A model generated the notes under the pieces. It saw only the letters and a list, made by a program, of their open reading frames with translations. It was not told the DNA's origin and did not search any database. Made by a program: the position numbers and the translations under genes. From Atractiella rhizophila (Eukaryota), in assembly GCA_021432655.1 (NCBI GenBank), contig MU271575.1:1-42644 (forward strand): a DNA stretch of 42,644 nt. Direction: 5' to 3'. The first letter of the stretch is position 1, and each line of letters opens with the position of its first letter. Below, piece after piece: positions 1,189-27,490 of this stretch.

Positions 1189-3308
1189 TCACTGACCTTC
1201 CGCAGGCCTCCTCGAATACTCATCCAAAACAGCCATCGCCTCCCTGACCTTCGCATTGAGAGCATTGGGATCCTCCACCAAACTAAGAAGTTCAGCGTTG
1301 TCCATCTCCAACAGCATACCAGTGATCTTGCCGGCTAGCTCAGGCTGAACCTCTTGAATCTTTGGATACAGATTCTCTCCCAGGATTTGCTTGTGGTCAG
1401 CGGGATTAGCTGCCGCCAAAGTAGCAGCGATGGCAGACTGCTGCGGAGGGGGAAGGGTTGCTCCAGGTCCGCTAGAAGGAGAAACGGGCTCTCCATTCGC
1501 TCCGCGTCCAGGGGGCTTGCCAGCATAACCGCCACGAGCAGCAGCTGCTCCTCGTCCTACTCCATTCACTCCTCCACCACGAGGTCCAGTCCCAGTCACG
1601 CCAGGTCCACCGCGACCGCGACCGGCAGCAGGTCCAGCACCGGGAGGGAAGGGAGGCATGTTGTATGGCATCGGGGGAGGATATTGGGGTCGCCCACCTG
1701 GACCCGGTGGCATCCTTGCGCCAGGTTGACCTATACCGACACAGATGGTTAGTTCTATTCTTGGCTCAAAGAAGGAGGGGATTAAAAAACGGAGAAATCT
1801 AACCTGGGTACATCGCCCGACCACCTGGAGGAGGATACGCAGGAGCACCGTAGTACATGGGATGAGGGTTCATGTAAGGGAGGCCAGGAATACCAGAAGC
1901 GGCCTATTAAACCAACAGAAGGTTAGCCAGAGCTCAGGCTCAAAATGGTAGCAAGGGAAAACGCACGAGCTGCTGGTTCCTAAGTTGATTCCTCTGCGCA
2001 ATCTGCGCCTCCAGCTGCTGTTTCCTCACATCCTTCCTCTGTGCAAGCGACACGTATAGGGGTTTCGTTCCAATCATCTTTCCGTTCAACTCGTTCACCG
2101 CCTTCGTCGCTTCGTCGGGGGCAGAGAAACAGACGAAGCCGAAACCTTTCGAATTTCCCTTGTCGTCCTCCATGATCTTTGTCGAAGTGATCGTTCCGTA
2201 TTTCGAAAATTCGGCTTCGAGTTTCTCCTTCGTCCAGTCGTCGTCCATATTCTTGATGTAGAGGTTAACACCTTGATACTTCAAGGTTTTCTCGTATTTC
2301 TGCTGTTCATAACTCCTCCTCAAATCTTCCTCCCTCTCGCTCTTCTTCTGGGCCCTCGTGACAAACAGCTCCTTCCCTTTGAATGGTTTCTTATGCAAAT
2401 CATCAACCGCCCTCTTCGCATGCTCGTGATTCTCAAAATTTACGAATCCAAATCCCTTGGACTTTCCTTCTTCGTCTCTCTGAACGATTGCGGAGGTAAC
2501 AGGTCCAAAAGCCTCGAAAAGCTGTCTGAACTCTTCATCGGTTGCCTCCGGGTCGATCTCCTTGATGTACAGATTCGTAAACCTCGACCTAATCTCGTCA
2601 ATCTTTGCTTGCCTCTCCCTCTTGGGGATATGAGGGCCGACAAAGACGACTTTATCGTTGAGAAGCATGCCATTGACCCTCTCGATCGCCTCTTGTGCAG
2701 CCTCAGCAGTGTCGTAGTGAACGAAACCGTAGCCTTTCGATTGGCCTTGATCGTCAACAGCGACTTTGCAGGAGAGGATGTTGCCGAATGCGGCAAAAGT
2801 GTCGTGAAGAGCCTTGTTGTCGATATTCTCATCAAGGTTCTTAATGAAGATGTTGCCAGCAGAGGTCTTGCGCAGAGAAGGGTCGCGTTGAGACCACATG
2901 ATCCGGCAGGGTTTATTCTTGATTAAGGAGTAATTGAGCTGTTCCAGAGCGCGTTCACCTGCATCGAACACGTGGAATTAAACTCTCATTTCGCGAACTA
3001 AAAGAAGACATACTGTCGCCAGAACCAACGTAGTTAACATAGGCGTACCCCAAACTCCTCCTCGTCACCGCATCCCTGCAGACACGAATGCTTGCCACTT
3101 GCCCAATCATCGAGAAGATTTCGTAAAGCATCGCTTCGGTGACAGTTGGGTCCAACTCTCCAACATAGAGCGAAGTTCCTCCGGGAGAGGTCGGGACAGC
3201 CGGAACTTGTTGAGGAGGGGGAGGAGGCATGTGAACGGGAACACCGTCAGCTTGGGGAGGGTAGGCACCTTCGGATGACGGCATAGGAGGAGCGACTTCA
3301 GCAGACAT
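1189..3308 (-). CDS. PAB1: Polyadenylate-binding protein (4 RRM + C-terminal MLLE/PABC domain)
   Basis: RRM motifs [66 protein letters not shown] motif [11 protein letters not shown]. Introns 2959-3013, 1904-1966 and 1731-1803 join the ORF pieces in frame. Confidence 0.97.
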
Positions 3309-3744
3309 TTTTTCGATTTTCGAATATGGTTTAGTCGACGGAGACGTTCGTGAGCGTTACTGAGTTTCTAGAATGCGAGTCGGCAACAATGCGTATAACA
3401 ATGAAGGAGAATGGGGGAGGACAACAAAGGGACGGCGCGCACGGACCAACCCAGGAACAACAATGCGGGGGACGGGAAAAAGTGGCGACGACTCACATTC
3501 TTTAACCCAGATAAAATCTACTCTGTAAAGAGGAGTGCAGCCTTCGGATTTCTGGACAGAATCGAGGGCAGAGGAAAGAGGAAGAGATGGATTTTAAGAT
3601 TTTAGAGGATTGATTGATTTCTTCTTTTCGCCCCGTTAAAAAAGGTTTTCTTGATTTTTTTGGCTGAGGTTTTCGAATGAACCAGGATCAAAGAGCGAGA
3701 GAACTGGATCTGAAGATATCTGAACCTCGTTTTATGGCTTTTTG

Positions 3745-5928: not shown

Positions 5929-6152
5929 GCTTAATTGATTTTGTTCGTTCTATTTCGCTATTCTGTACTTGTGCAATATCATTGAGGTTTTTGCTAGACC
6001 TCATCTGTGTCATATGATTCCTCAAAGTCCAACTGACGGTCTATGTCATTTTCACTTTTCTTCATGGTCTCATGCCACTATCGCACTCATTCAAGTACAC
6101 ACCCCATCCACTGTTTTCTCCCGCCACCCCCTCAGAATTCTCCTATCTCTCC

Positions 6153-8239
6153 ATGCTGTCTTTTGTGCTCTTGTTCCCTCTTGCACAAGGATCCCGTCAT
6201 CCCTCCGGCCGATCCTCTCAACGGCTGCACAGCTCCCTTGCTGGCCCGCCAAATGAAACGTTGGTCTTCCCCACGTCTCGGTTTGGACATGCTACTTTCT
6301 ATATCCCAGAAGAAAAAGTCATTTATTACGTTGGTGGTCACGATTCTCCGGACCATCAGGTTGACTTCTTCTACCTCGACCATTCAGATCAGCACCATTG
6401 CACTATTCCTCCTCCCCCTTCCCACATTTCTTCCTCCGCGTATGCAATTTCAGAAAGAGGGGATCTGTGGACCATTGGCGGGACCTGGGCGAACTGTTCT
6501 GAGGATCGACCTTGGGGATACGTTTATAAGCCATCTATCCGAGAATGGGTTTCTGTTCCACGGTGGAGAAGCGAGACGCGAAGAATTGGAGCGCAGGCAG
6601 TATCACGGCACGGGAAGATTTATGTTTTCGGTGGATTCGAGGATCATAGCACATGCAGCGGAGGAGGGCCAGCTGGGTATCCGTTCATGGATATTTGGAC
6701 GGAGAGAACTGGCACGGCGCGTCGCATTGCAATGTCGAGGAGCGATCTCCTATTGCCTCACTGTACACCATTAAATGGGCGCGCTAGGGGACGGCAATAC
6801 CCCATCAACCCGAAGCTATTAGAGAGACACCAAGAACTGGTTGATGCCTCGAGAAGCGATTATTCAGCGAGTGTAATTGGAGGGAAGCTTGCTTTCCTTG
6901 GAGGTGTGACACCTGGTGGAGAGCTGGTCAGCATGGAGATTGTCTTGTTGTTCGACACTGTCAAGGAAGAATTTTCATCGGAGGTTTGTTTGACCTCTAC
7001 CATTTGCTCCTGCCTTCAGTTCTAATGTTTAGACAGACGATCTCATGCTCCTCTACCTGTCCACCTCCAACACGCGGTCATGCCTCCGTCGTGCTTCCTT
7101 CTGGACGGATCCTCGTCCATGGTGGCCTTTCTTCCTCCTCCGTTCCTCTTTCTACTATGTACATCCTCTCCCCTCCAGATCCCTCACGTAACGCAACGCT
7201 GTTCACTTGGCGTCAGATCGCGTCCTCTTCGCTCATCCCTTCCCCTTCTCGAGCCTTCCATTCTGCTGTCCTACTTCGTGGTGACAATGAAACGGCAACC
7301 ATAGTATTTGGTTTTGGGCTGGATGCGAGCAAGAAAGGAGCGGAGAAAGATTTATGGATTTTGAGGGGGAATGAAGCTGAGGATCGCTGGGAATGGATGG
7401 ACGCGCGATCGTTCCTGGCCGTCCTCGGAGGTTCGACGTCTAGCCAGGAAAGCGACCTGCTTACAGCCAGCGTTCCCGTTGTCGTGCTTCCTACCACACG
7501 ATCAATCCCTGGCAGCTTGACGGCCGATTCCACTCGTTCTATTTCTGCGCCTTCGCTTTTATCGTCCACTTCCAGTGGATTGACCCTCCCTACTTCCCCC
7601 GCCGTTACCAGTATTCCTTCAGCGACCGCTTCTTCGTCCCCGACAAACACATCTTCCACTTCCTCCTTTAGCTCCACACCAGCGGGGGCAATTGCCGGTA
7701 CCATTGTTGGTGCAGTTCTCGCAATGTGTGCTGCTGGAATCCTTCTCTTTGTCCTCACACGGCGACGAGGCGGTTCCACCCCCCCAGCGCCGCATTCAAC
7801 ATCTAACACTTCCCTTTCGGGCAAATCGCATGCCTCTCTCCTCCAAGAAATACTCTCGGACTCACCATCTCATCTCGATCCTCGTCTCGATTCTGGAGAA
7901 ACAGGCTTCGTCGTCCTCCGTCCTCCAGTCGCCCCTCTCATTACCATTTCGCGGCCGCCCGCGTCGTCTGATGCAGATGGAACTATTGGAAGCGCACAGT
8001 CTATTCGATATCTCACTCCACTATCAGTTTCTAAACCTGTCGATATCGATGAGGAGCAGGAACGATTGAAGACAATGGTCGCGATCCCCGAGAGCTTGAG
8101 ACCACGAAGTCAACTAGTCGTGAGAAACTCGACAGCAGGTGAACCCACGCCAATGAAGATTCGATGCCCTGCGGATGAGTGTCTGGAGCGAATTGATATT
8201 GACGAGTTTGGACGAGCTTATGTTGTGCCAGTCTTTTGA
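6153..8239 (+). CDS. Kelch-repeat (galactose oxidase-like beta-propeller) single-pass membrane protein
   Basis: Signal-like start MLSFVLLFPLAQG; kelch motifs IYYVGG, LWTIGG, IYVFGG, LAFLGG, ILVHGG, IVFGFG; Ser/Thr-rich stalk; TM helix GAIAGTIVGAVLAMCAAGILLFVL followed by RRR. Intron 6984-7036 (GTTTGT...CTAAT...CAG) joins the two ORFs in frame. Confidence 0.88.
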
Positions 8240-8353: not shown

Positions 8354-9428
8354 TCAACTTGTTTCCCACCTCTCCCCCGCTTCCCACTCTTTAATAAACT
8401 TACCTACCCGTTCCCTAGTCCTCTCTCGCCCTTCACTTCTCCCAAAAGCCTCCACAAACTTCCCTTCAGGATCCATGAGGTAGAAGAAGATGCTGTGGTC
8501 GACCAGGTAGTCGTCACCTGGTTTCGCTGTTGGAGGAGATGAGAAGTAGACTCTGTAGCCTTTGCAAGCCGTCTTGATGTTTTCGTAGGAACCTGTCAGA
8601 CCGATGATGGACGAGTGGAAATCTCTGAGATATGCGTCAATAGCTTGTGGTGAGTCTCGAGCAGGATCGCAGGTTATGAACAGTGGGGTGATCACTGTGC
8701 CTTGCTTTTCACCTGAAATTCCTTCAATGTCAGAAAAGGCGAGAAAAGCTGTGCTCACGTGTATAATCTACAATATGGCCCATTTTATCGAGTTCTTCAG
8801 GGCAAATATCAGGACAGTTGGTGAAGCCGAACTGTTCCGCCAAGAACAGGTTCAATACATACGAACAACTCTGGACATAGGTTCGAAGGAACTCACATAG
8901 ACCAATGACCATTTCCCTAGCATATCCTTGTCGGTATATTGATTCCCTTTCGTGTCCACCAGCTCGAATGGACCTCCAAGGTTTGGTCGTCCCATCCGTT
9001 TCGGCGCCATCTCTTCCCCTGCGTCACGGTCAGCATGCGTGCAAAGAAGGCCGACAGGGACAACACGAACGCTTTCGCTCTTCTATCTTCGACTTTTCGT
9101 TCTGGAAATACAGGAAAAGTCCAGCGCCTGTGCCCAAGAAAATAGCCAGCGCTTTGAAGTTGAACACCTGCATTGTCGTTTAGCCAGGCCGAGTTTGGGA
9201 TGATGGACGCACTCCAAGCGTTGAACGCGCTCTGTAAACCTGTCCATCCGCTGTTGAACTCCCTTTCGAAGACTTACCGTCCGACGAAGGAGGAGGGGGA
9301 GAACTGGACGACTGTGTGGGGAGAGAATACGGACGCCGGCAAGCAGTGAAAGAAGGAGAAAGGAGCACAGACTGTCGAGTGGAGCACCTGCGTACTGCAT
9401 TCGAAGTAATTCGAGCAACAAACGCCAT
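8354..9428 (-). CDS. SCO1: SCO1/SenC mitochondrial copper chaperone for cytochrome c oxidase
   Basis: Arg/Ser-rich presequence MAFVARITSNAVRR; TM segment VFNFKALAIFLGTGAGLFLYF; LGGPFELVD; FGFTNCPDICPEEL (CxxxC); FITCDPARD; DYLVDHSIFFYLMDPEGKF. Introns include 9168-9212 and 9019-9070. Confidence 0.96.
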
Positions 9429-9872
9429 AGCAGCTGCAAGTATTGGGCAAGTGGGGTGACTTTTCGGAAGGTGGTCTGAAATTTCTTTAGTTTCTAGGTC
9501 AACACCAACTATACTGTTATCCGAAATATTGGAATGTTTCCCTTCAGCTGCGCAAAAACAGAGCGACGATTGTTCCAAGACAAGGGAGTAGCCAGGTTCG
9601 TCTAACTAGACCTGTCCACTTTGTCAGGGTGCGCTTGTAGGATCCATAGACAACACCATCAATGCTCTATGTTTGCCTTGCCAAAAGTTTGCGCAGCGCG
9701 GAGCTGAGTCCCTGCAGCACACAGCCCGCATTTCCGCTGCTGGTGTTTACGAGCAAATTACGTCATGCAAGAGTGACATAAAAGTGGGCAATCCACATCA
9801 TTTCTCTTCTCAAACGAGCTATACCTCCCATCACATCCTTAACGATCTTAACGTCCATTCACGAACCCAGCA

Positions 9873-10192
9873 ATGGCCAAAGCAACGTTGAACCAGCCTT
9901 CCTCCGCTCTCAACACTACCATTCCACAACCACCTTCTCCCTCGTACTCTTACAAACCAAAAATGTCAATTCCGTTACAGACAAATGACGGTGGAGAATG
10001 GACGGAGCGTAAAGGGGAGGGAAAGCAGGATGCTGAGGTGATGAGGCTGCGAGGAGGTGCGTTTTTCGCTGGTTCTTTGCTTGGGTAAAAGGTTTTGATC
10101 TTTCCATGGTGTTATTCATCATCATAGGCTGTATTCCTTGTCCCGATGGTAGCGTGTGCTACATTATTCCATGCTGTTGTCCTTGTCCGTAA
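9873..10192 (+). CDS. 82-aa microprotein: disordered N-terminus, MRLRGG, then a 20-aa Cys-rich tail (CIPCPDGSVCYIIPCCCPCP)
   Basis: Exon 1 9873-10056; intron 10057-10127 (GTGCGT donor, TTGAT branch-like, first downstream AG = CATAG); exon 2 10128-10192 ends TAA. The spliced tail has 7 Cys in 20 residues, which is unlikely by chance. Confidence 0.8.
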
Positions 10193-10624
10193 AAAAGAAT
10201 GGAATGTCGTGTAAAGGGGCGGACAATTGGTTTTGGTTCAAGTGTATGAGTGTACAGTACATGTATTGGGTTAGTAATTCACAATATGTAAATCTCCGTT
10301 GTTGTCTGTTGAATACAGTAAGATGTGTATCTCGTTCAATAACACTTCATTGCGCTACCAACATGGAAGCTATTTCGTGTCACGGACCTGATTGACTGCC
10401 AGCCATTCCACAATACGCAATGTTTGCTCTTGTGTATTCGCGACTGTCGTTTACACTCTTTCGTCATAGTAGACAAAAGAAAGTGAGTAGAGTTACAGTA
10501 ACATTCTACAAGAGTATTCAATCTTCAAGTCCTTGAACAACTGTAGGTTTTAAACAACGTTCCATTCTATAACAAAATAAACGACGGACAATCCAAAACC
10601 AAAACGAGAGGATAAACCACAGGA

Positions 10625-17447: not shown

Positions 17448-20011
17448 GTTTGGTGAATGGTAAGGCATCTTGATTGACTGTCGATCTCTCACCCACCGCA
17501 GTGTCGTCTGGGTAAAATTTGCTTTCGTGAGACCTGAGCTCTTTTATGATCTCAGCCATGTTTGGTCGTCCGGGAGCATAGCAGCGTTGATTGAACAAAA
17601 CAACCGGGCCATGCGTGGACGGAAGGGAGCAGAGATGTGGGTGGAAACCGAAATCGAGAACGAGCCAACGGTGCCAGATATCCGCAGCTACGACGGCAAA
17701 AGCTCTGATCCCATCTCAGTTCCTGTGTTTTCGTCATCGAGCGAGTCCGGAATGTTTATGACCGAAAGCCTGGAAGCTGAGTTGGAGCTCTTGGAGGATG
17801 GAATTCGATGGAATACTGGAAGGTCAAGAAAGTTCTTACGGGTGAGTTACCAGGCGTCTCCCGCTTTCCTGGACGCGACTCAAAAGGGCAGAAGTTTCAG
17901 AAGCCTGAGCACGAATATTCCATGCGTAGCGACAACTGTTGCTTTCGTCGCTTCCTCGGCGCTCTGAAGAAGTGGAAACAAGCAATACCGTACGCTTGAT
18001 ACCGCAGGCAGGCGTACGTTGCCAAAGTCGTCCGACTTCTTTATTAAATTTGGGACTTGAAATGTGTCCGTGGGACCAGGTACTCCCTCTCCCTTTTCCA
18101 AGCAGAGGTATCAAAGGTAGCGGTTAACTAGTAATAGACGAACCAAGTCCCTTCTTATTCCTGCTATCGTACAACTGCCGTCCCCAAATTTTAAGGACTC
18201 TAAAATACAGCATTTAAACTGGATTGAAATATAGGTAGGTTAATGACGAAAAGACGATCGAACGGATCCTCCAATTAAGAAAAAGAAAGAGCTGAACGTT
18301 GAGTCAGATCGAATTGTCCTTGAGGGTGAGATGATGTGAGGCTGAAGGAAGGTGCTTGCGATGCTGCATAAGTGGTTAGAGGGCTGAATTTTCTCGCTCG
18401 ACATGATGGTGATCAATCGATGGAGCGACTGGGTAAAGCTGAAGGATTGCACTGAACGACTGTGATTGTATGAGCGACTGCGTGACGGGTCGTAGTAGTG
18501 TTTATCGTGTCGAAGAAGGACTGAACGGAGCACTGAAGACTTGCGTTTCTCCAAAAGTAGGCCGACAACTCAGGAAGCCATGGGATCCTATTCCCTATAA
18601 TTTGCCCCGTTATACGCCGAAGCGTCCTACAAAACCAAGTTAAGGACATAACACCTCAGTTGAAGGAAAGGGTACGCACCACCCAACTCGACTGATCCCT
18701 GCTGCCATCCCTCCTTCTCACAGGCGCTGGAGGCGGGGGACCGGGTGGAGGGGCGAAGGTGACGTTCCCTCGCGAAGCGGGAGGGACGTTCCCAAACTGT
18801 TGTTGGAACTGCTGTCCTTCCGCGCTGTGTATCCGCTGGGATCCATGCCGGTTCAAGCCTCTCGCACGATTAAGGATCGAACGTCCGCGTCCAAAGTTCC
18901 CTGCAGCCGCCATGGGTGGTTGCCGCTGTTGAGTTTGGTAAGGCGAGCGACGACGTCCGAAGAAGATACAACGGAGGCAGGAGAAGATGGTAAGGAGGAC
19001 GATAATGCCAGCTACGACTGTGACCGGAATGGCAATTTCTGTTTACACATCGAAATGTCAACAATCGATCACCGGAATTTCAAGATAAGGGATAGTGAGC
19101 ACGTACGCAAATTCTGCGTATACCACCCCTTCGCGACATCCAACCAATTTCCTTCTTTACACTTCCCACTTTGACAAGTTCCCGCATACCCACATTCCGT
19201 TCCATCTCTGAAATTGGACTCGAGGAGAACACAATCGCTGTTTGTGTCAGGGTCGGCACAAGTGACCTGACAACTGCTGCTCGTCCTCCCAGAACAACTC
19301 TTCGTAATCCCCAGGCTTCCACCTTGAGCAGCACACTGCTGATCCCTGCTCGTACACAACCCGCTCGCACACTGTAATCCACTACCACACGACGTCTTGT
19401 CCTTCACAAAGGTATCCTCTGGACAGGTGGCATTGAATCCAGTGCAAGTCTCAGCAATGTCACACCGGCTGTCGATCGATGGACGACAGACTGTACCGTT
19501 CGAAGCGAAGGCGCAGGAATCAGTACAGCATGCGCTATTCAATGGATCGCAGACGGAAGATGAGGTGAAGCGACAGGTAGAGGAATTGCAACATGGGCTA
19601 TCGACTCCGCCTGTGTCGCAGTCTTCTCCCGGTTCAACGATCCCGTTACCGCATTGTTGGAGAGAGAGCGTCGTGCGAGATCCGGGAGGAGACAGACAGG
19701 TGGTATTGAGCGAGTTTGAGATCGTGGAGCCTTTCCATTCAATCCAGATCAACATCCCAGCTTCCCACATGGACAGTTGACAAGAGAGAAGGGAAACTCA
19801 CAAACATTCCCAATGCTACACTGACTGAAGCTCGTCACATTCTGCGTACTAACGGGCGACATGATGAAGGCGTCATTAGCGTTACAGGTGCTGGTGGTGA
19901 GAGGACAGCAACTCTGCGTGAGTGTACAACCGTCCGTGCAGTCGTGGATGGCACCAAAATTGTGTCCAACCTCGTGCGCGACGACCTGCCACTCATTCCT
20001 CGTGATGGCAG

Positions 20012-25813: not shown

Positions 25814-27490
25814 TCACTCTTGCACATAATTACCTGAAATGTAACTCATTAGGTCAACGATATAGTAAAAGGTGAGTAATGAATACTAACCGGGGAACAC
25901 TCCTGACTTCCATTCAGCTTACCCGTCCACCAATCCTCTGTACTATCCGTCCTTGTCACCAGTTCGATTTTATCACCCGCCTTAAAGCTCAAATCCCCGT
26001 CCGCTTGCGCTTCAAAATCGTAGAGCGCAGTAACATACACCTTTGCAGCTGGCGGCGGTGGCGGCTTTGGTTTGAGAGCTGGAGGAGGAGGCGGGGCGCG
26101 CTTTGTACCAGTCGCTCCAGTAGTGCTTGCAGCAGTATATGGTGGAGGCGCCGTAGCGGTGGACGCTGACCGAGATATCCCAGCAGCACCGGCTGATAAC
26201 GTAGAGACGCCAGAAACAGATCGAGATGGAGCTGGAGAGGTATCGGCAGAGGACACTTGACGGGCATTTTGCATCATCCGAGCTACTCCATTCATCAGCT
26301 ATCTTTCCACAACTCGAGATTCATTCTTACCGGTGCTAACAAACCGTTTGGTAATGTTCATGTTATCGAGCTGAACAGCAGCATCCCCGAGTTTCTGACG
26401 GTATGCATCATCGATACTGACAGAGAGGTCGATCATGTTCTCATTGTCGACGAAACCTTTAAGTTGCTCAAGCATGTTGTAGATCACGTTGAGCTGCATA
26501 TAGTAGAAAGATGTGAAGAGAGGAGAGATGAACGCCTGAGTGTAGGAGAAGAACTGGGGAAGCTCAGTCTTGAGCAGACTATTGTGATGTTCATATTCTT
26601 GAGAGGCTTGCTCGTAATCTTGTTCAACCTGTATTGAAAAGATCTTAGGGCATGCTGTGGAGGCAAGAAGATGTAGTTTGCCTTGAAGAGGTTCTTCTCG
26701 TCGTTCAGCGTCTTTTCTTTCTTGTCCCGCAATTTAGTATAACTATTGTTGTGCCGATCGAAATCCACCAACTGCAACCGGCTCAATCAAACCCTAGATA
26801 GTACAGCAAAGAGCTTACTTTATGATCCCTCTTCGTTATGGCCTTCCTGATCTTCTTACAAATCTCCTGATATTCCTTCAAAGGTGCCAAAATTCGTGTA
26901 TCGATAAGCTCGATCTCCGGGAGGACACTCTGCTTCAAACCTTCCATAATTGTGTTGTAGTTGTCGATGTTTTTCAGTGTATCAGCAGCTTGAGGGTGCC
27001 TCGAAGTAAGAGCGCTTAGTGATTCGGAACTATCCAGAGGCGAGAGAAGGACCGCAAATACGGCAGCGAAGTCGCTTTGCGAGGACATCATGTCTATTGC
27101 TTGGCGTCAGCTAGGCGTGGGCACAGAGGGCAATCGGACTGTTGACAGCATCCCGAAAAGCAGTAGAGTCTTTGATCAACTTGTTCGAATAATCTTCGAT
27201 GGCCGTAAACTTGCGATTGAGCTCACTGCACACAAGCACGATATGTCCCTTGTTCCGGCGGAGGAGAAACAACGCACTTGAATTCTGCATCAGTTGACTC
27301 TGAAGTGCGCCAATAATCAATCATAAGCCTCTTCCCACTCCCAAGAAACATCAAACACACTGGACGACATGCCCACTTTGCTGGTGAGCATGTGGGGAGC
27401 CCTGCATCCATCCGTTTGCAATCAGCTATGGCCGAATAGATATGACAGAAAGGAGACGCACCGCTGGATACTCTTTAGCATTCCCTTCAT
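25814..27490 (-). CDS. RVS167: Amphiphysin-like BAR-SH3 protein (Rvs167/Hob1); apparent 1-nt frameshift in the last SH3 strand
   Basis: [20 protein letters not shown] start; BAR helices ([35 protein letters not shown]); Pro-rich linker; SH3 [26 protein letters not shown]...WWTGKLNG; terminal GVFPG|NYVQE* lies in a shifted frame. Confidence 0.93.

What the first reader, a model, noticed from the sequence alone, without database searches (positions are those of the whole stretch)
9873..10192. Microprotein with a ubiquitin-type RLRGG tail fused to a 7-Cys peptide: candidate DUB-released peptide system
Seen: hidden by an intron, the product is 82 aa, ending ...KQDAEVMRLRGG|CIPCPDGSVCYIIPCCCPCP*. 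The intron splits the second Gly codon, so the Cys peptide is essentially its own exon. There is no ubiquitin fold and no signal peptide upstream, only a P/S/T-rich disordered leader. Known: RLRGG is the ubiquitin C-terminus, which deubiquitinases cleave after GG in ubiquitin precursors. Inference: the gene may be a precursor that borrows DUBs as a processing protease, releasing a 20-aa peptide with N-terminal Cys (metal-binding, palmitoylated CYSTM-like anchor, or RiPP-like core) and a leader ending in free GG that could be conjugated or act as a DUB decoy. I recall similar uncharacterised sequences in other basidiomycetes but cannot verify this here.
Basis: partly seen in the sequence, partly recalled or inferred. 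Interest (0 to 1): 0.85.

Follow-up and report, generated by a model that had tools for sequence, protein, structure and literature searches.

The report
Conserved fungal RLRGG–cysteine-tail microprotein
This is a real, spliced and transcribed 82-residue fungal protein from a large unnamed mushroom-phylum family that always places a ubiquitin-like R-x-R-G-G motif directly before a cysteine-packed tail, most likely a fatty-acylated membrane anchor; whether it is cut after GG is untested.

Summary
The ATG is at 9873 and a 71-nt GT..AG intron (10057-10127) splits Gly62. The 82-aa product is letter for letter the deposited Atractiella rhizophila model. In 4 of 4 public runs laid, contigs skip exactly this intron.

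The predicted conservation is also real. A profile search finds 236 relatives, and every named one is from Basidiomycota. Of 127 sequences inspected, 93 have RLRGG and 123 have R-[LIMV]-R-G-G, always followed by Cys and a 17-21-aa tail with 4-10 Cys. Codons vary freely, so the constraint is on the peptide.

- No ubiquitin fold exists (AF2 pTM 0.17), whereas the known DUB-processed precursors read here carry one.
- The exon boundary at GG|C is not conserved.
- The leader has its own conserved blocks.

The architecture resembles CYSTM/CYSPD palmitoylated tail proteins. Even so, 0 of 102 members hit Pfam CYSTM, and the tail cannot be a TM helix.

My best reading is an S-acylated, membrane-tethered disordered microprotein (about 0.45). 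GG-directed cleavage stays open (about 0.2), since ZUFSP-type DUBs do cut bare RLRGG peptides.

The parts
9838..9872 (+). Minimal 5' UTR
   Evidence: cDNA-like contigs begin at 9838-9864 (table 8). No ATG lies upstream of 9873 within them.
9873..10056 (+). Exon 1 coding part: M1 to the first base of the G62 codon. It encodes the P/S/T-rich disordered leader.
   Evidence: AF2 gives no secondary structure.
10044..10056 (+). Codons for R58-L59-R60-G61 plus the first base of G62 (the R-x-R-G-G motif)
   Evidence: Conserved in 123 of 127 relatives as R-[LIMV]-R-G-G. Codons are free among 29 distinct DNAs.
10057..10127 (+). Intron, 71 nt, GTGCGT..ATAG, phase 1 within Gly62
   Evidence: Skipped in contigs of 4 of 4 runs. 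Also absent from the deposited model.
10128..10189 (+). Exon 2 coding part: the last two bases of G62 plus the 20-aa tail with 7 Cys
   Evidence: No listed difference in any of the 4 runs across this stretch (tables 3 and 4).
10190..10192 (+). Stop codon TAA
10193..10284 (+). Minimal 3' UTR
   Evidence: Contigs end at 10244-10284. All listed substitutions and indels of the exon-2 pieces lie here, at 10196 or beyond.

Best explanation
The locus encodes a genuine, transcribed 82-aa microprotein. It belongs to an unnamed family found across Basidiomycota.

**Family layout**
- An intrinsically disordered, P/S/T/Q-rich cytosolic head. In Agaricomycotina it carries two short conserved blocks, YPPxAH and QP-x(4-6)-M-S/T.
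- A polar linker of about 14-18 aa.
- An invariant C-terminal module of about 25 aa: R-[LIM]-R-G-G-C-[IV]-P-[CL]-P-[DNG]-G-x-x-C-[YWF]-I-I-P-(I/L-P)-C-C-C.

**Most likely mechanism (inferred, not shown)**
- The protein is not secreted.
- The short hydrophobic I-I-P-I-P stretch and the R-x-R basic pair bring the tail to a membrane.
- DHHC palmitoyltransferases then S-acylate several of the clustered cysteines.
- The uncleaved protein is thereby tethered by lipid rather than by a TM helix, with the disordered head facing the cytosol. Yeast CYSTM/CYSPD proteins Cpp1-3 behave this way.
- R-x-R-G-G is then a conserved recognition or hinge element next to the anchor. It could additionally be a regulated cleavage site.

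**Shown:** the gene, the splice, transcription, family-wide peptide-level conservation, and the absence of a fold, a signal peptide and a TM helix.
**Inferred:** lipidation, membrane location and function.
For: **The gene is real**
- Gene and splice.
- Across the four near-identical strain contigs, all listed changes in the exon-2 pieces lie 3' of the stop. The tail-coding stretch shows none.

**The family is real and constrained at the peptide level**
- 14 phmmer hits among 1.84 billion representatives.
- 236 profile hits. Named ones span many Agaricomycete orders plus Dacryopinax, Mixia and Atractiella.
- Tails are always at the extreme C-terminus, 17-21 aa long, with 4-10 Cys. 63 of 102 end in CCC.
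- All six Arg codons are used in the motif.

**Resemblance to CYSTM/CYSPD**
- The Atlas nearest cluster by features scores 0.92 with 189 shared features and is auto-named a CYSTM-domain protein.
- UniRef gives 3 of the 120 listed proteins that name.
- Yeast CYSTM tails are membrane-bound by palmitoylation and are not TM (PMC10840359, abstract and Discussion).

**The tail cannot span a membrane as a helix**
- It has 2-5 prolines, and the longest Pro-free run is 7-10 residues.
- The median KD19 is 1.31.
Against: - 0 of 102 intact members match Pfam CYSTM PF12734, even at E<=10.
- Two defining CYSTM features are absent: the TM helix and the acidic residue after the Cys patch.
- The Atlas score for the tail alone is only 0.80, which is a lead only.
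- A lipid anchor does not by itself explain why R-x-R-G-G, C-I-P-C-P and D-G are nearly invariant across the whole phylum. Palmitoylated tails usually tolerate much more sequence drift (general knowledge).
- No lipidation, localisation or metal data exist for any member. Four literature searches were blank or irrelevant: the motif strings (2 papers held 'RLRGGC', neither about this family by title and abstract start), locus tags, LRGG cleavage phrases and a CYSTM/fungi search that listed no paper on this family.
Confidence: 0.45

Rival explanations
1. The protein is a precursor cut after R-x-R-G-G by a ubiquitin-tail-specific cysteine protease, such as a ZUFSP-type, UCH or other DUB. Cutting releases a 17-21-aa peptide that starts with Cys, which may then be lipidated or bind metal. 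It also leaves a leader ending in free diGly. This model is compatible with later S-acylation of the released tail.
For: - R(-5), a hydrophobic residue at -4, R(-3), G and G are exactly the ubiquitin-tail determinants. They are kept in 123 of 127 sequences, and GG-C is kept in 127 of 127.
- The constraint is on the peptide.
- ZUFSP-family cores, including fungal Mug105, cleave RLRGG-AMC through two acidic residues that pair with R-x-R. They do not need the Ile44 patch (PMC8776766 passages).
- Tail length is tightly bounded at 17-21 aa, as expected for a defined product.
- One Dacryopinax model (P0117) also diverges right after RLRGG, which hints at a second lineage with an exon boundary there.
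Against: - No UBL fold precedes the GG, whereas the DUB-processed precursors FAU, SDE2 and TUG have one, with USP1 described as comparable (PMC8013793 passages).
- Conserved leader blocks argue that the leader is more than a disposable pro-piece.
- The exon boundary at GG|C is not conserved.
- No fused UBL form was found. Only one marginal longer hit appeared, at E 0.0099, and this is weak evidence.
- The 127-of-127 count is partly circular, because the profile contained the motif.
Confidence: 0.2
2. The Cys tail is a metal-thiolate site for Cu(I), Zn or Cd. The protein would act as a metallothionein-like or chaperone-like buffer, possibly at a membrane.
For: - Invariant C63 and C72 and nearly invariant C77, plus a C-x-x-C, form a 20-aa Gly/Pro-rich loop.
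- AF2 places a single beta-bridge between residues 65 and 71 around the P-D-G turn. This is knuckle-like, but confidence is low.
- CYSTM relatives have been linked to Cd, Cu and Mn tolerance (PMC2804304; abstract of PMC10217909).
- The divergent neighbour here is an SCO1/SenC copper-chaperone gene.
Against: - The SCO1 adjacency is not seen beside any of the 38 related loci.
- The second Cys of the C-x-x-C is replaced by Leu in 13 of 102 members.
- The tail has a conserved aromatic residue and an I-I-P-I-P hydrophobic stretch, which is unlike classical metallothioneins (recalled).
- No Pfam metallothionein family hit any of the 102 members at E<=10.
- The JBC authors note that palmitoylated cysteines would be unavailable for chelation.
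Confidence: 0.2
3. The gene is a RiPP-type or pheromone-like precursor. Its Cys core would be tailored by dedicated enzymes and exported.
For: It has a leader-plus-core layout with conserved leader blocks and a short invariant core.
Against: - There is no signal peptide, no repeated cores and no CaaX end. Endings are mostly CCC.
- No tailoring-enzyme genes lie nearby. The ORFs that Pfam named within about 10 kb are PABP, Kelch, SCO1 and a disintegrin/ADAM-like protein. Many other flanking ORFs had no Pfam hit.
- No window neighbour recurs beside the 38 related loci.
- An invariant core across a whole phylum is unlike the diversifying cores of RiPPs (general knowledge).
Confidence: 0.05

Closest known systems
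CYSTM / CYSPD proteins (Pfam PF12734; yeast Cpp1/Ybr016w, Cpp2/Ydr210w, Cpp3/Ydr034w-b; S. pombe Uvi15; plant PCC1, CDT1)
   Same: - Small size (60-150 aa).
- A disordered P/Q-rich cytosolic head with YPP-type motifs.
- A conserved Cys-rich module at the extreme C-terminus with 3-4 consecutive Cys, and no signal peptide.
- The yeast members are held on the membrane by S-acylation and not by a TM helix.
- The Atlas nearest neighbours and 3 UniRef names carry this label.
   Different: - 0 of 102 members hit PF12734 at E<=10.
- The tail is proline-broken and cannot form a single helix.
- No acidic residue follows the Cys patch.
- The invariant R-x-R-G-G-C-I-P-C-P-D-G segment is not part of the CYSTM definition that I read.
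- A profile-profile comparison could not be run, because no CYSTM reference sequences could be obtained from the tools.
Ubiquitin-fusion and UBL-diGly precursors processed by DUBs (ubiquitin-ribosomal fusions, FAU, SDE2, TUG; USP1 autocleavage)
   Same: - A diGly preceded by an R-x-R ubiquitin-type tail, followed by a C-terminal extension.
- Cleavage would leave a diGly-ended N-fragment and a new N-terminus, as described for those proteins.
   Different: - No beta-grasp/UBL fold lies upstream.
- The leader is 44-66 aa in most members and is disordered.
- Cleavage has not been shown.
ZUFSP/ZUP1-family DUBs (including S. pombe Mug105), as a candidate processing enzyme class
   Same: They recognise the R-x-R-G-G pentapeptide itself and cleave RLRGG-AMC efficiently. 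This matches the residues conserved here.
   Different: - This is an enzyme family, not a relative of the microprotein.
- Its presence in Atractiella or other family-bearing fungi could not be checked, because no fungal genome is held.
- The paper says Mug105-type minimal enzymes occur only in a narrow fungal lineage.
C-terminal Cys-cluster palmitoylation anchors such as yeast Yck2
   Same: These are cytosolic proteins ending in consecutive Cys that need palmitoylation to reach the membrane. GFP-Yck2 is the positive control in the JBC paper; further details are recalled.
   Different: Those anchors sit on folded kinases and lack any R-x-R-G-G or C-I-P-C-P-D-G element (recalled).

Membership tests
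CYSTM (PF12734) | Significant match to the Pfam CYSTM profile | tested here: not met
   P0003 has no family at E<=10. 0 of 102 intact family members hit PF12734 at E<=10.
CYSTM (PF12734) | Module always at the extreme C-terminus of a small protein | tested here: met
   102 of 102 intact members end 17-21 aa after the GG.
CYSTM (PF12734) | 5-6 Cys, including a patch of 3-4 consecutive Cys | tested here: met
   Tails hold 4-10 Cys (mode 7), and 63 of 102 end in CCC. P0003 has CCC at 77-79.
CYSTM (PF12734) | The Cys lie in a single C-terminal TM alpha-helix | tested here: not met
   The tail has 2-5 prolines, and the longest Pro-free run is 7-10 residues. Median KD19 is 1.31. AF2 predicts no helix. 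The helix criterion is itself disputed for the yeast members.
CYSTM (PF12734) | Conserved acidic residue after the Cys-rich helix | tested here: not met
   The listed three-residue endings contain no D or E, and proteins stop at the Cys patch.
CYSTM (PF12734) | Pro/Gln-rich disordered cytoplasmic head | tested here: met
   Leader composition, AF2 with no secondary structure, and the YPP and QP blocks.
CYSTM (PF12734) | N-terminal beta-strand element with conserved hydrophobic residues | tested here: inconclusive
   AF2 predicts no strand. A conserved V/I-x-x-QP block exists, but its conformation is unknown.
CYSPD (palmitoylated CYSTM as redefined in yeast) | S-acylation of the tail cysteines is responsible for membrane binding | not testable with these tools
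   This needs acyl-biotin exchange, hydroxylamine release and localisation, as done in PMC10840359.
Ubiquitin/UBL-fusion precursors cleaved by DUBs | Beta-grasp (ubiquitin-like) fold immediately before the diGly | tested here: not met
   AF2 with 89 sequences gives pTM 0.17 and no helix or strand. There is no Pfam hit and no PDB sequence match at E<=10.
Ubiquitin/UBL-fusion precursors cleaved by DUBs | Ubiquitin-type tail R-x-R-G-G | tested here: met
   RLRGG in P0003. 93 of 127 are exact and 123 of 127 are R-[LIMV]-R-G-G.
Ubiquitin/UBL-fusion precursors cleaved by DUBs | Endoproteolytic cleavage after GG | not testable with these tools
   No DUB sequence of a fungus was available for a complex prediction, and no proteomic data were found.
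Fungal metallothioneins | Match to a metallothionein profile, with a C-x-C-rich and aromatic-poor sequence | tested here: not met
   No metallothionein family appeared among the Pfam hits of 102 members at E<=10. A conserved aromatic residue and an I-I-P stretch are present. Metal binding itself is not testable here.
Fungal RiPP precursors (dikaritin / MSDIN / borosin types) | Signal peptide with repeated Kex2-flanked cores, or adjacent tailoring enzymes | tested here: not met
   No N-terminal hydrophobic region and a single core. The Pfam-named neighbours are PABP, Kelch, SCO1 and a disintegrin-like protein. No neighbour of this window recurs beside the 38 loci.

The most novel reading that the evidence does not exclude
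A phylum-wide family of non-UBL microproteins uses a bare ubiquitin-tail pentapeptide (R-x-R-G-G) as a processing site for a ubiquitin-tail-specific protease, for example a ZUFSP-type DUB. Cutting would release a 17-21-aa peptide with an N-terminal Cys that is multiply acylated or metal-binding. It would also leave a diGly-ended leader that could act as a C-degron, a ZnF-UBP ligand or a DUB decoy. This would be the first cellular (non-viral) use of DUB specificity on a substrate without a ubiquitin fold. An even bolder variant is that the invariant Gly-Cys bond undergoes an N-to-S acyl shift, which would give a self-activated glycyl thioester.
Probability: 0.2. Interest if true: 0.85.

Novelty: new variant of a known kind. 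Interest (0 to 1): 0.62.

Why it matters
- The family is large (236 database proteins at E<=0.01), old (shared by Pucciniomycotina and Agaricomycotina) and transcribed.
- It has no Pfam model and no literature that I could find, and it is often mis-annotated at its intron.
- It gives a clean natural test of two questions. Can a bare ubiquitin-tail motif direct DUB-type cleavage in cells? How do proline-broken Cys clusters anchor proteins?
- If the protein is simply a palmitoylated tail protein, it widens the CYSTM/CYSPD concept to a form that no profile currently detects. It also supplies a sharply conserved motif to mutate.
- Transcript-like contigs of it turn up in many plant-associated sequencing runs, so it may also matter for the endophytic lifestyle of Atractiella.

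Tried and rejected
- **Pfam on the exon pieces and the whole protein**: nothing at E<=10.
- **PDB sequence search with the family profile**: nothing at E<=10.
- **Window's own genome**: not held, so paralogues, DUBs and DHHC genes of Atractiella could not be searched.
The profile-profile test against CYSTM was therefore dropped.
- **Six-frame scan of the window for paralogues**: none. LRGG occurs 3 times in six frames, and only this one lies before a Cys tail.
- **Longer or fused forms**: one marginal 974-aa hit (E 0.0099, F-box protein). I treat it as chance or a model fusion.
- **SCO1 adjacency as a functional clue**: rejected as conserved linkage, because none of 10 window-neighbour ORFs hits any of the 38 related loci. 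Many of those contigs are short, so this is weak evidence.
- **Atlas search with the tail alone**: best score 0.80, a lead only.
- **Atlas structure hits**: meaningless for a disordered model with pLDDT 0.25.
- **Literature searches:** the motif strings returned 2 papers holding 'RLRGGC', neither about this family by title and abstract start. Six locus tags and LRGG internal-cleavage phrases returned no papers. Supplements were not opened and bioRxiv supplements are closed, so expression tables listing family members may exist unseen.
- **Earlier scan notes**: nothing.
- **P0007 (1645 aa) and P0013 (1157 aa):** dropped before the counts. I judged them low-complexity matches from the table alone (long proteins whose best match does not reach the tail) and did not inspect them further.
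- **Depth and number of holding runs** (24 rows, 18 studies): not used as a measure of expression or habitat.

Full report
**1. The observation**

The sequence is as described. An ATG at 9873 opens a frame that reads ...KQDAEVMRLRGG and, if unspliced, ends in AFFAGSLLG* at 10088. A second frame downstream encodes the 20-residue tail with seven cysteines, followed by TAA at 10190-10192.

A 71-nt intron (10057-10127, GTGCGT...ATAG) joins the two frames. It splits the Gly62 codon into G at 10056 and GC at 10128-10129.

The spliced 82-aa product is identical to a deposited model: hypothetical protein BT69DRAFT_1286740 of Atractiella rhizophila (Pucciniomycotina, Atractiellomycetes). Its contig is 42,644 bases, the same length as the window.

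**2. Transcript evidence**

A word-index search found 24 run rows from 18 studies that hold 0.20-0.39 of the sampled words. I laid four of these runs, from four studies. One is on record as metatranscriptomic RNA. The other three are guessed or unknown in kind.
- All four (4 of 4) contain a contig of 211-385 nt that skips exactly 71 nt with GT..AG ends. The joint is reported at 10054/10126 with 'cut +2', which is 10056/10128.
- No contig covers the bin 10065-10095.
- Contigs span 9838-10284. The mRNA is therefore short, and 9873 is its first AUG.
- The contigs are 95-99% identical to the window, so they come from related strains.
- In the pieces carrying exon 2, every listed substitution or indel lies at 10196 or beyond, 3' of the stop. 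None lies in the tail-coding stretch.
- One run (X8) has two non-synonymous changes in the leader, at 9900 and 9906.
- Contigs cannot give expression level, and I make no such claim.

**3. Relatives**

phmmer against 1.84 billion representatives gave 14 hits at E<=0.001. I dropped two long proteins, P0007 and P0013, which I judged to be low-complexity matches from the table alone.

A profile of the first 12 sequences then found 236 proteins at E<=0.01 among 3,282 candidates, of which 120 were listed. Every named record is from Basidiomycota:
- many Agaricomycete orders;
- Serendipita, Tulasnella, Rhizoctonia/Ceratobasidium and Exidia;
- Dacryopinax (Dacrymycetes);
- Mixia osmundae and Atractiella (Pucciniomycotina).

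All are 'hypothetical' or 'uncharacterized', except three UniRef names that read 'Cysteine-rich transmembrane CYSTM domain-containing protein'. The 116 unlisted hits were not seen.

**4. The motif**

I inspected 127 sequences: the listed hits plus cluster members, minus the two dropped.

| Pentapeptide before the Cys | Count of 127 |
|---|---|
| RLRGG | 93 |
| RIRGG | 21 |
| RMRGG | 8 |
| RLDGG, RQRGG, RVRGG, RPRGG, PLRGG | 1 each |

- All 127 have G-G-C-[IVLF]-P-[CL]-[PG]. This is partly circular, because the profile contained the motif.
- The 102 intact members end 17-21 residues after GG with 4-10 Cys, and 63 end in CCC.
- In an alignment of 89 members the invariant columns are P29, R60, G61, G62, C63, P65 and C72. 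At 90% or more are P9, Q28, M35, R58, P67, G69, I74, P76 and C77.
- Among 29 distinct DNA versions of the motif from metagenome contigs, all six Arg codons, six Leu codons and all four Gly codons occur. Selection therefore acts on the peptide.

**5.

*(a) The exon boundary is not a family feature.*
- Twenty-two of 25 aberrant database models diverge right after C-[IV]-P-C-P into 'V...', which is read-through of a GT. Two (P0006, P0017) diverge after ...IIP into 'VS...', and one (P0130) does not fit either pattern.
- In DNA, 27 of 39 motif occurrences in 38 metagenome loci regain a canonical tail when a 44-67-nt GT..AG intron directly after that Pro is removed. One is intron-less, and 11 were unresolved by my simple script.
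- The scan pattern required R-x-R-G-G-C-x-P-x-P to be contiguous, so it could not find GG|C introns.
- One Dacryopinax model (P0117) that fuses two tandem copies diverges right after RLRGG in its first copy. A GG|C boundary may therefore exist outside Atractiella.

*(b) The leader is not featureless.* QP-x(4-6)-M occurs in 100 of 102 intact members and YPP in 53 of 102. The conserved Met lies mostly 14-18 residues before the R-x-R.

*(c) There is truly no fold.* AF2 with 89 sequences gives mean pLDDT 62.6, pTM 0.17 and no helix or strand, with only a single beta-bridge between residues 65 and 71. No signal peptide is present.

**6. What it resembles**

The Atlas nearest cluster by language-model features scores 0.92 with 189 shared features. 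It is auto-named a CYSTM-domain protein and has 534 members, mostly from Ascomycota. A true PF12734 cluster ranks 12th at 0.78. With the tail alone the best score is 0.80, a lead only.

The CYSTM paper defines the module as follows (PMC2804304, parts 1-2 of 3, i.e. all of its main text):
- a beta-strand element;
- a variable linker;
- a C-terminal TM helix with 5-6 Cys, including 3-4 consecutive, followed by an acidic residue;
- always at the extreme C-terminus, behind a P/Q-rich head.

The yeast study shows that Cpp1-3 are held on the plasma membrane by palmitoylation, are not TM, and depend on Akr1 and Erf2 (PMC10840359, abstract and Discussion).

This family shares the head, the position and the Cys patch. 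It differs in three ways:
- 0 of 102 members hit PF12734, even at E<=10.
- The tail has 2-5 prolines and no Pro-free run longer than 10 residues. Median KD19 is 1.31.
- Nothing follows the Cys patch.

I therefore file it as working like a CYSPD protein and not as a demonstrated CYSTM member.

**7. The DUB idea**

*For:*
- The conserved positions are R-5, hydrophobic -4, R-3, G and G. These are the ubiquitin-tail determinants.
- The ZUFSP paper reports that ZUP1-family cores, including fungal Mug105, cleave RLRGG-AMC well through two acidic residues that pair with R-x-R, independently of the Ile44 patch (PMC8776766 passages).

*Against:*
- The same paper says many other DUBs do not act on that peptide.
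- The DUB-processed precursors named in PMC8013793 (FAU, SDE2, TUG, with USP1 described as comparable) carry a UBL before the diGly.
- No longer, UBL-fused form of this family turned up. There was one marginal hit at E 0.0099, which is weak evidence.

Cleavage and lipidation are not mutually exclusive.

**8. Context**

The ORFs that Pfam names near the gene are listed below. Many other ORFs had no Pfam hit.

| Coordinates | Strand | Pfam-named neighbour |
|---|---|---|
| 1192-3356 | - | Poly(A)-binding protein |
| 6018-8236 | + | Kelch-repeat protein |
| 8357-8767 | - | SCO1/SenC exon; the gene is transcribed divergently from the microprotein gene |
| 19072-19797 | - | Disintegrin/ADAM-like protein |
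| 25852-26733 | - | BAR-SH3 protein |

- No DUB, DHHC or tailoring enzyme is present.
- None of ten window-neighbour ORFs hits any of the 38 related loci, so the SCO1 adjacency looks incidental.
- No paralogue lies in the window.

**9. Verdict**

| Reading | Probability |
|---|---|
| Uncleaved, multiply S-acylated, membrane-tethered disordered microprotein of the CYSTM/CYSPD kind | about 0.45 |
| GG-directed processing | about 0.2 |
| Metal-thiolate tail | about 0.2 |
| RiPP-like precursor | about 0.05 |

No paper on the family was found. Supplementary tables were not examined.

Noticed in passing
window 8357-8767 (-), with further upstream ORFs to about 9605: An SCO1/SenC copper-chaperone exon (Pfam E 1.3e-23) belongs to a gene transcribed divergently from the microprotein gene, so the two may share a promoter region. 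None of the window's neighbour ORFs recurs beside the 38 related loci.
   Followed up: partly
window 1192-3356 (-): A poly(A)-binding protein gene with several RRM_1 domains and a C-terminal MLLE domain, split by introns.
   Followed up: no
window 6018-8236 (+); 19072-19797 (-); 25852-26733 (-): A Kelch-repeat protein, a disintegrin (ADAM-like) domain protein, and a BAR plus SH3 (Rvs167-like) protein. None has an evident link to the finding.
   Followed up: no
L036 2172 and 2711; protein P0117 (Dacryopinax): The family occurs as tandem duplicates in some fungi. L036 carries two copies about 540 nt apart. P0117 is a gene model that fuses two tandem copies, and its first copy diverges right after RLRGG, which hints at an intron at GG|C as in Atractiella.
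   Followed up: partly
proteins P0106-P0131: About a fifth of database models of this family (25 of 127) are mis-predicted. Most read through the short intron after C-[IV]-P-C-P, so the Cys tail is lost from the annotation. This may be one reason the family has gone unnoticed.
   Followed up: yes
family alignment A2; proteins P0010 and P0068: There are two subtypes. In 13 of 102 members the second Cys is replaced by Leu (C-I-P-L-P-N/G-G-G-R/T-C). Both subtypes coexist in Schizophyllum commune.
   Followed up: partly
family alignment A2, column of M35; window about 9963-9968 (M31-S32): A nearly invariant internal Met-Ser/Thr follows a QP block (100 of 102 members). It could be a second initiation site giving a product of about 40-50 aa, or a binding motif. 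This was not tested.
   Followed up: no
window 9900 and 9906: One run (X8) carries T>G and G>A. Both are non-synonymous changes in the leader (S10A, A12T by my reading of the codons), while the tail is unchanged in all four runs.
   Followed up: partly
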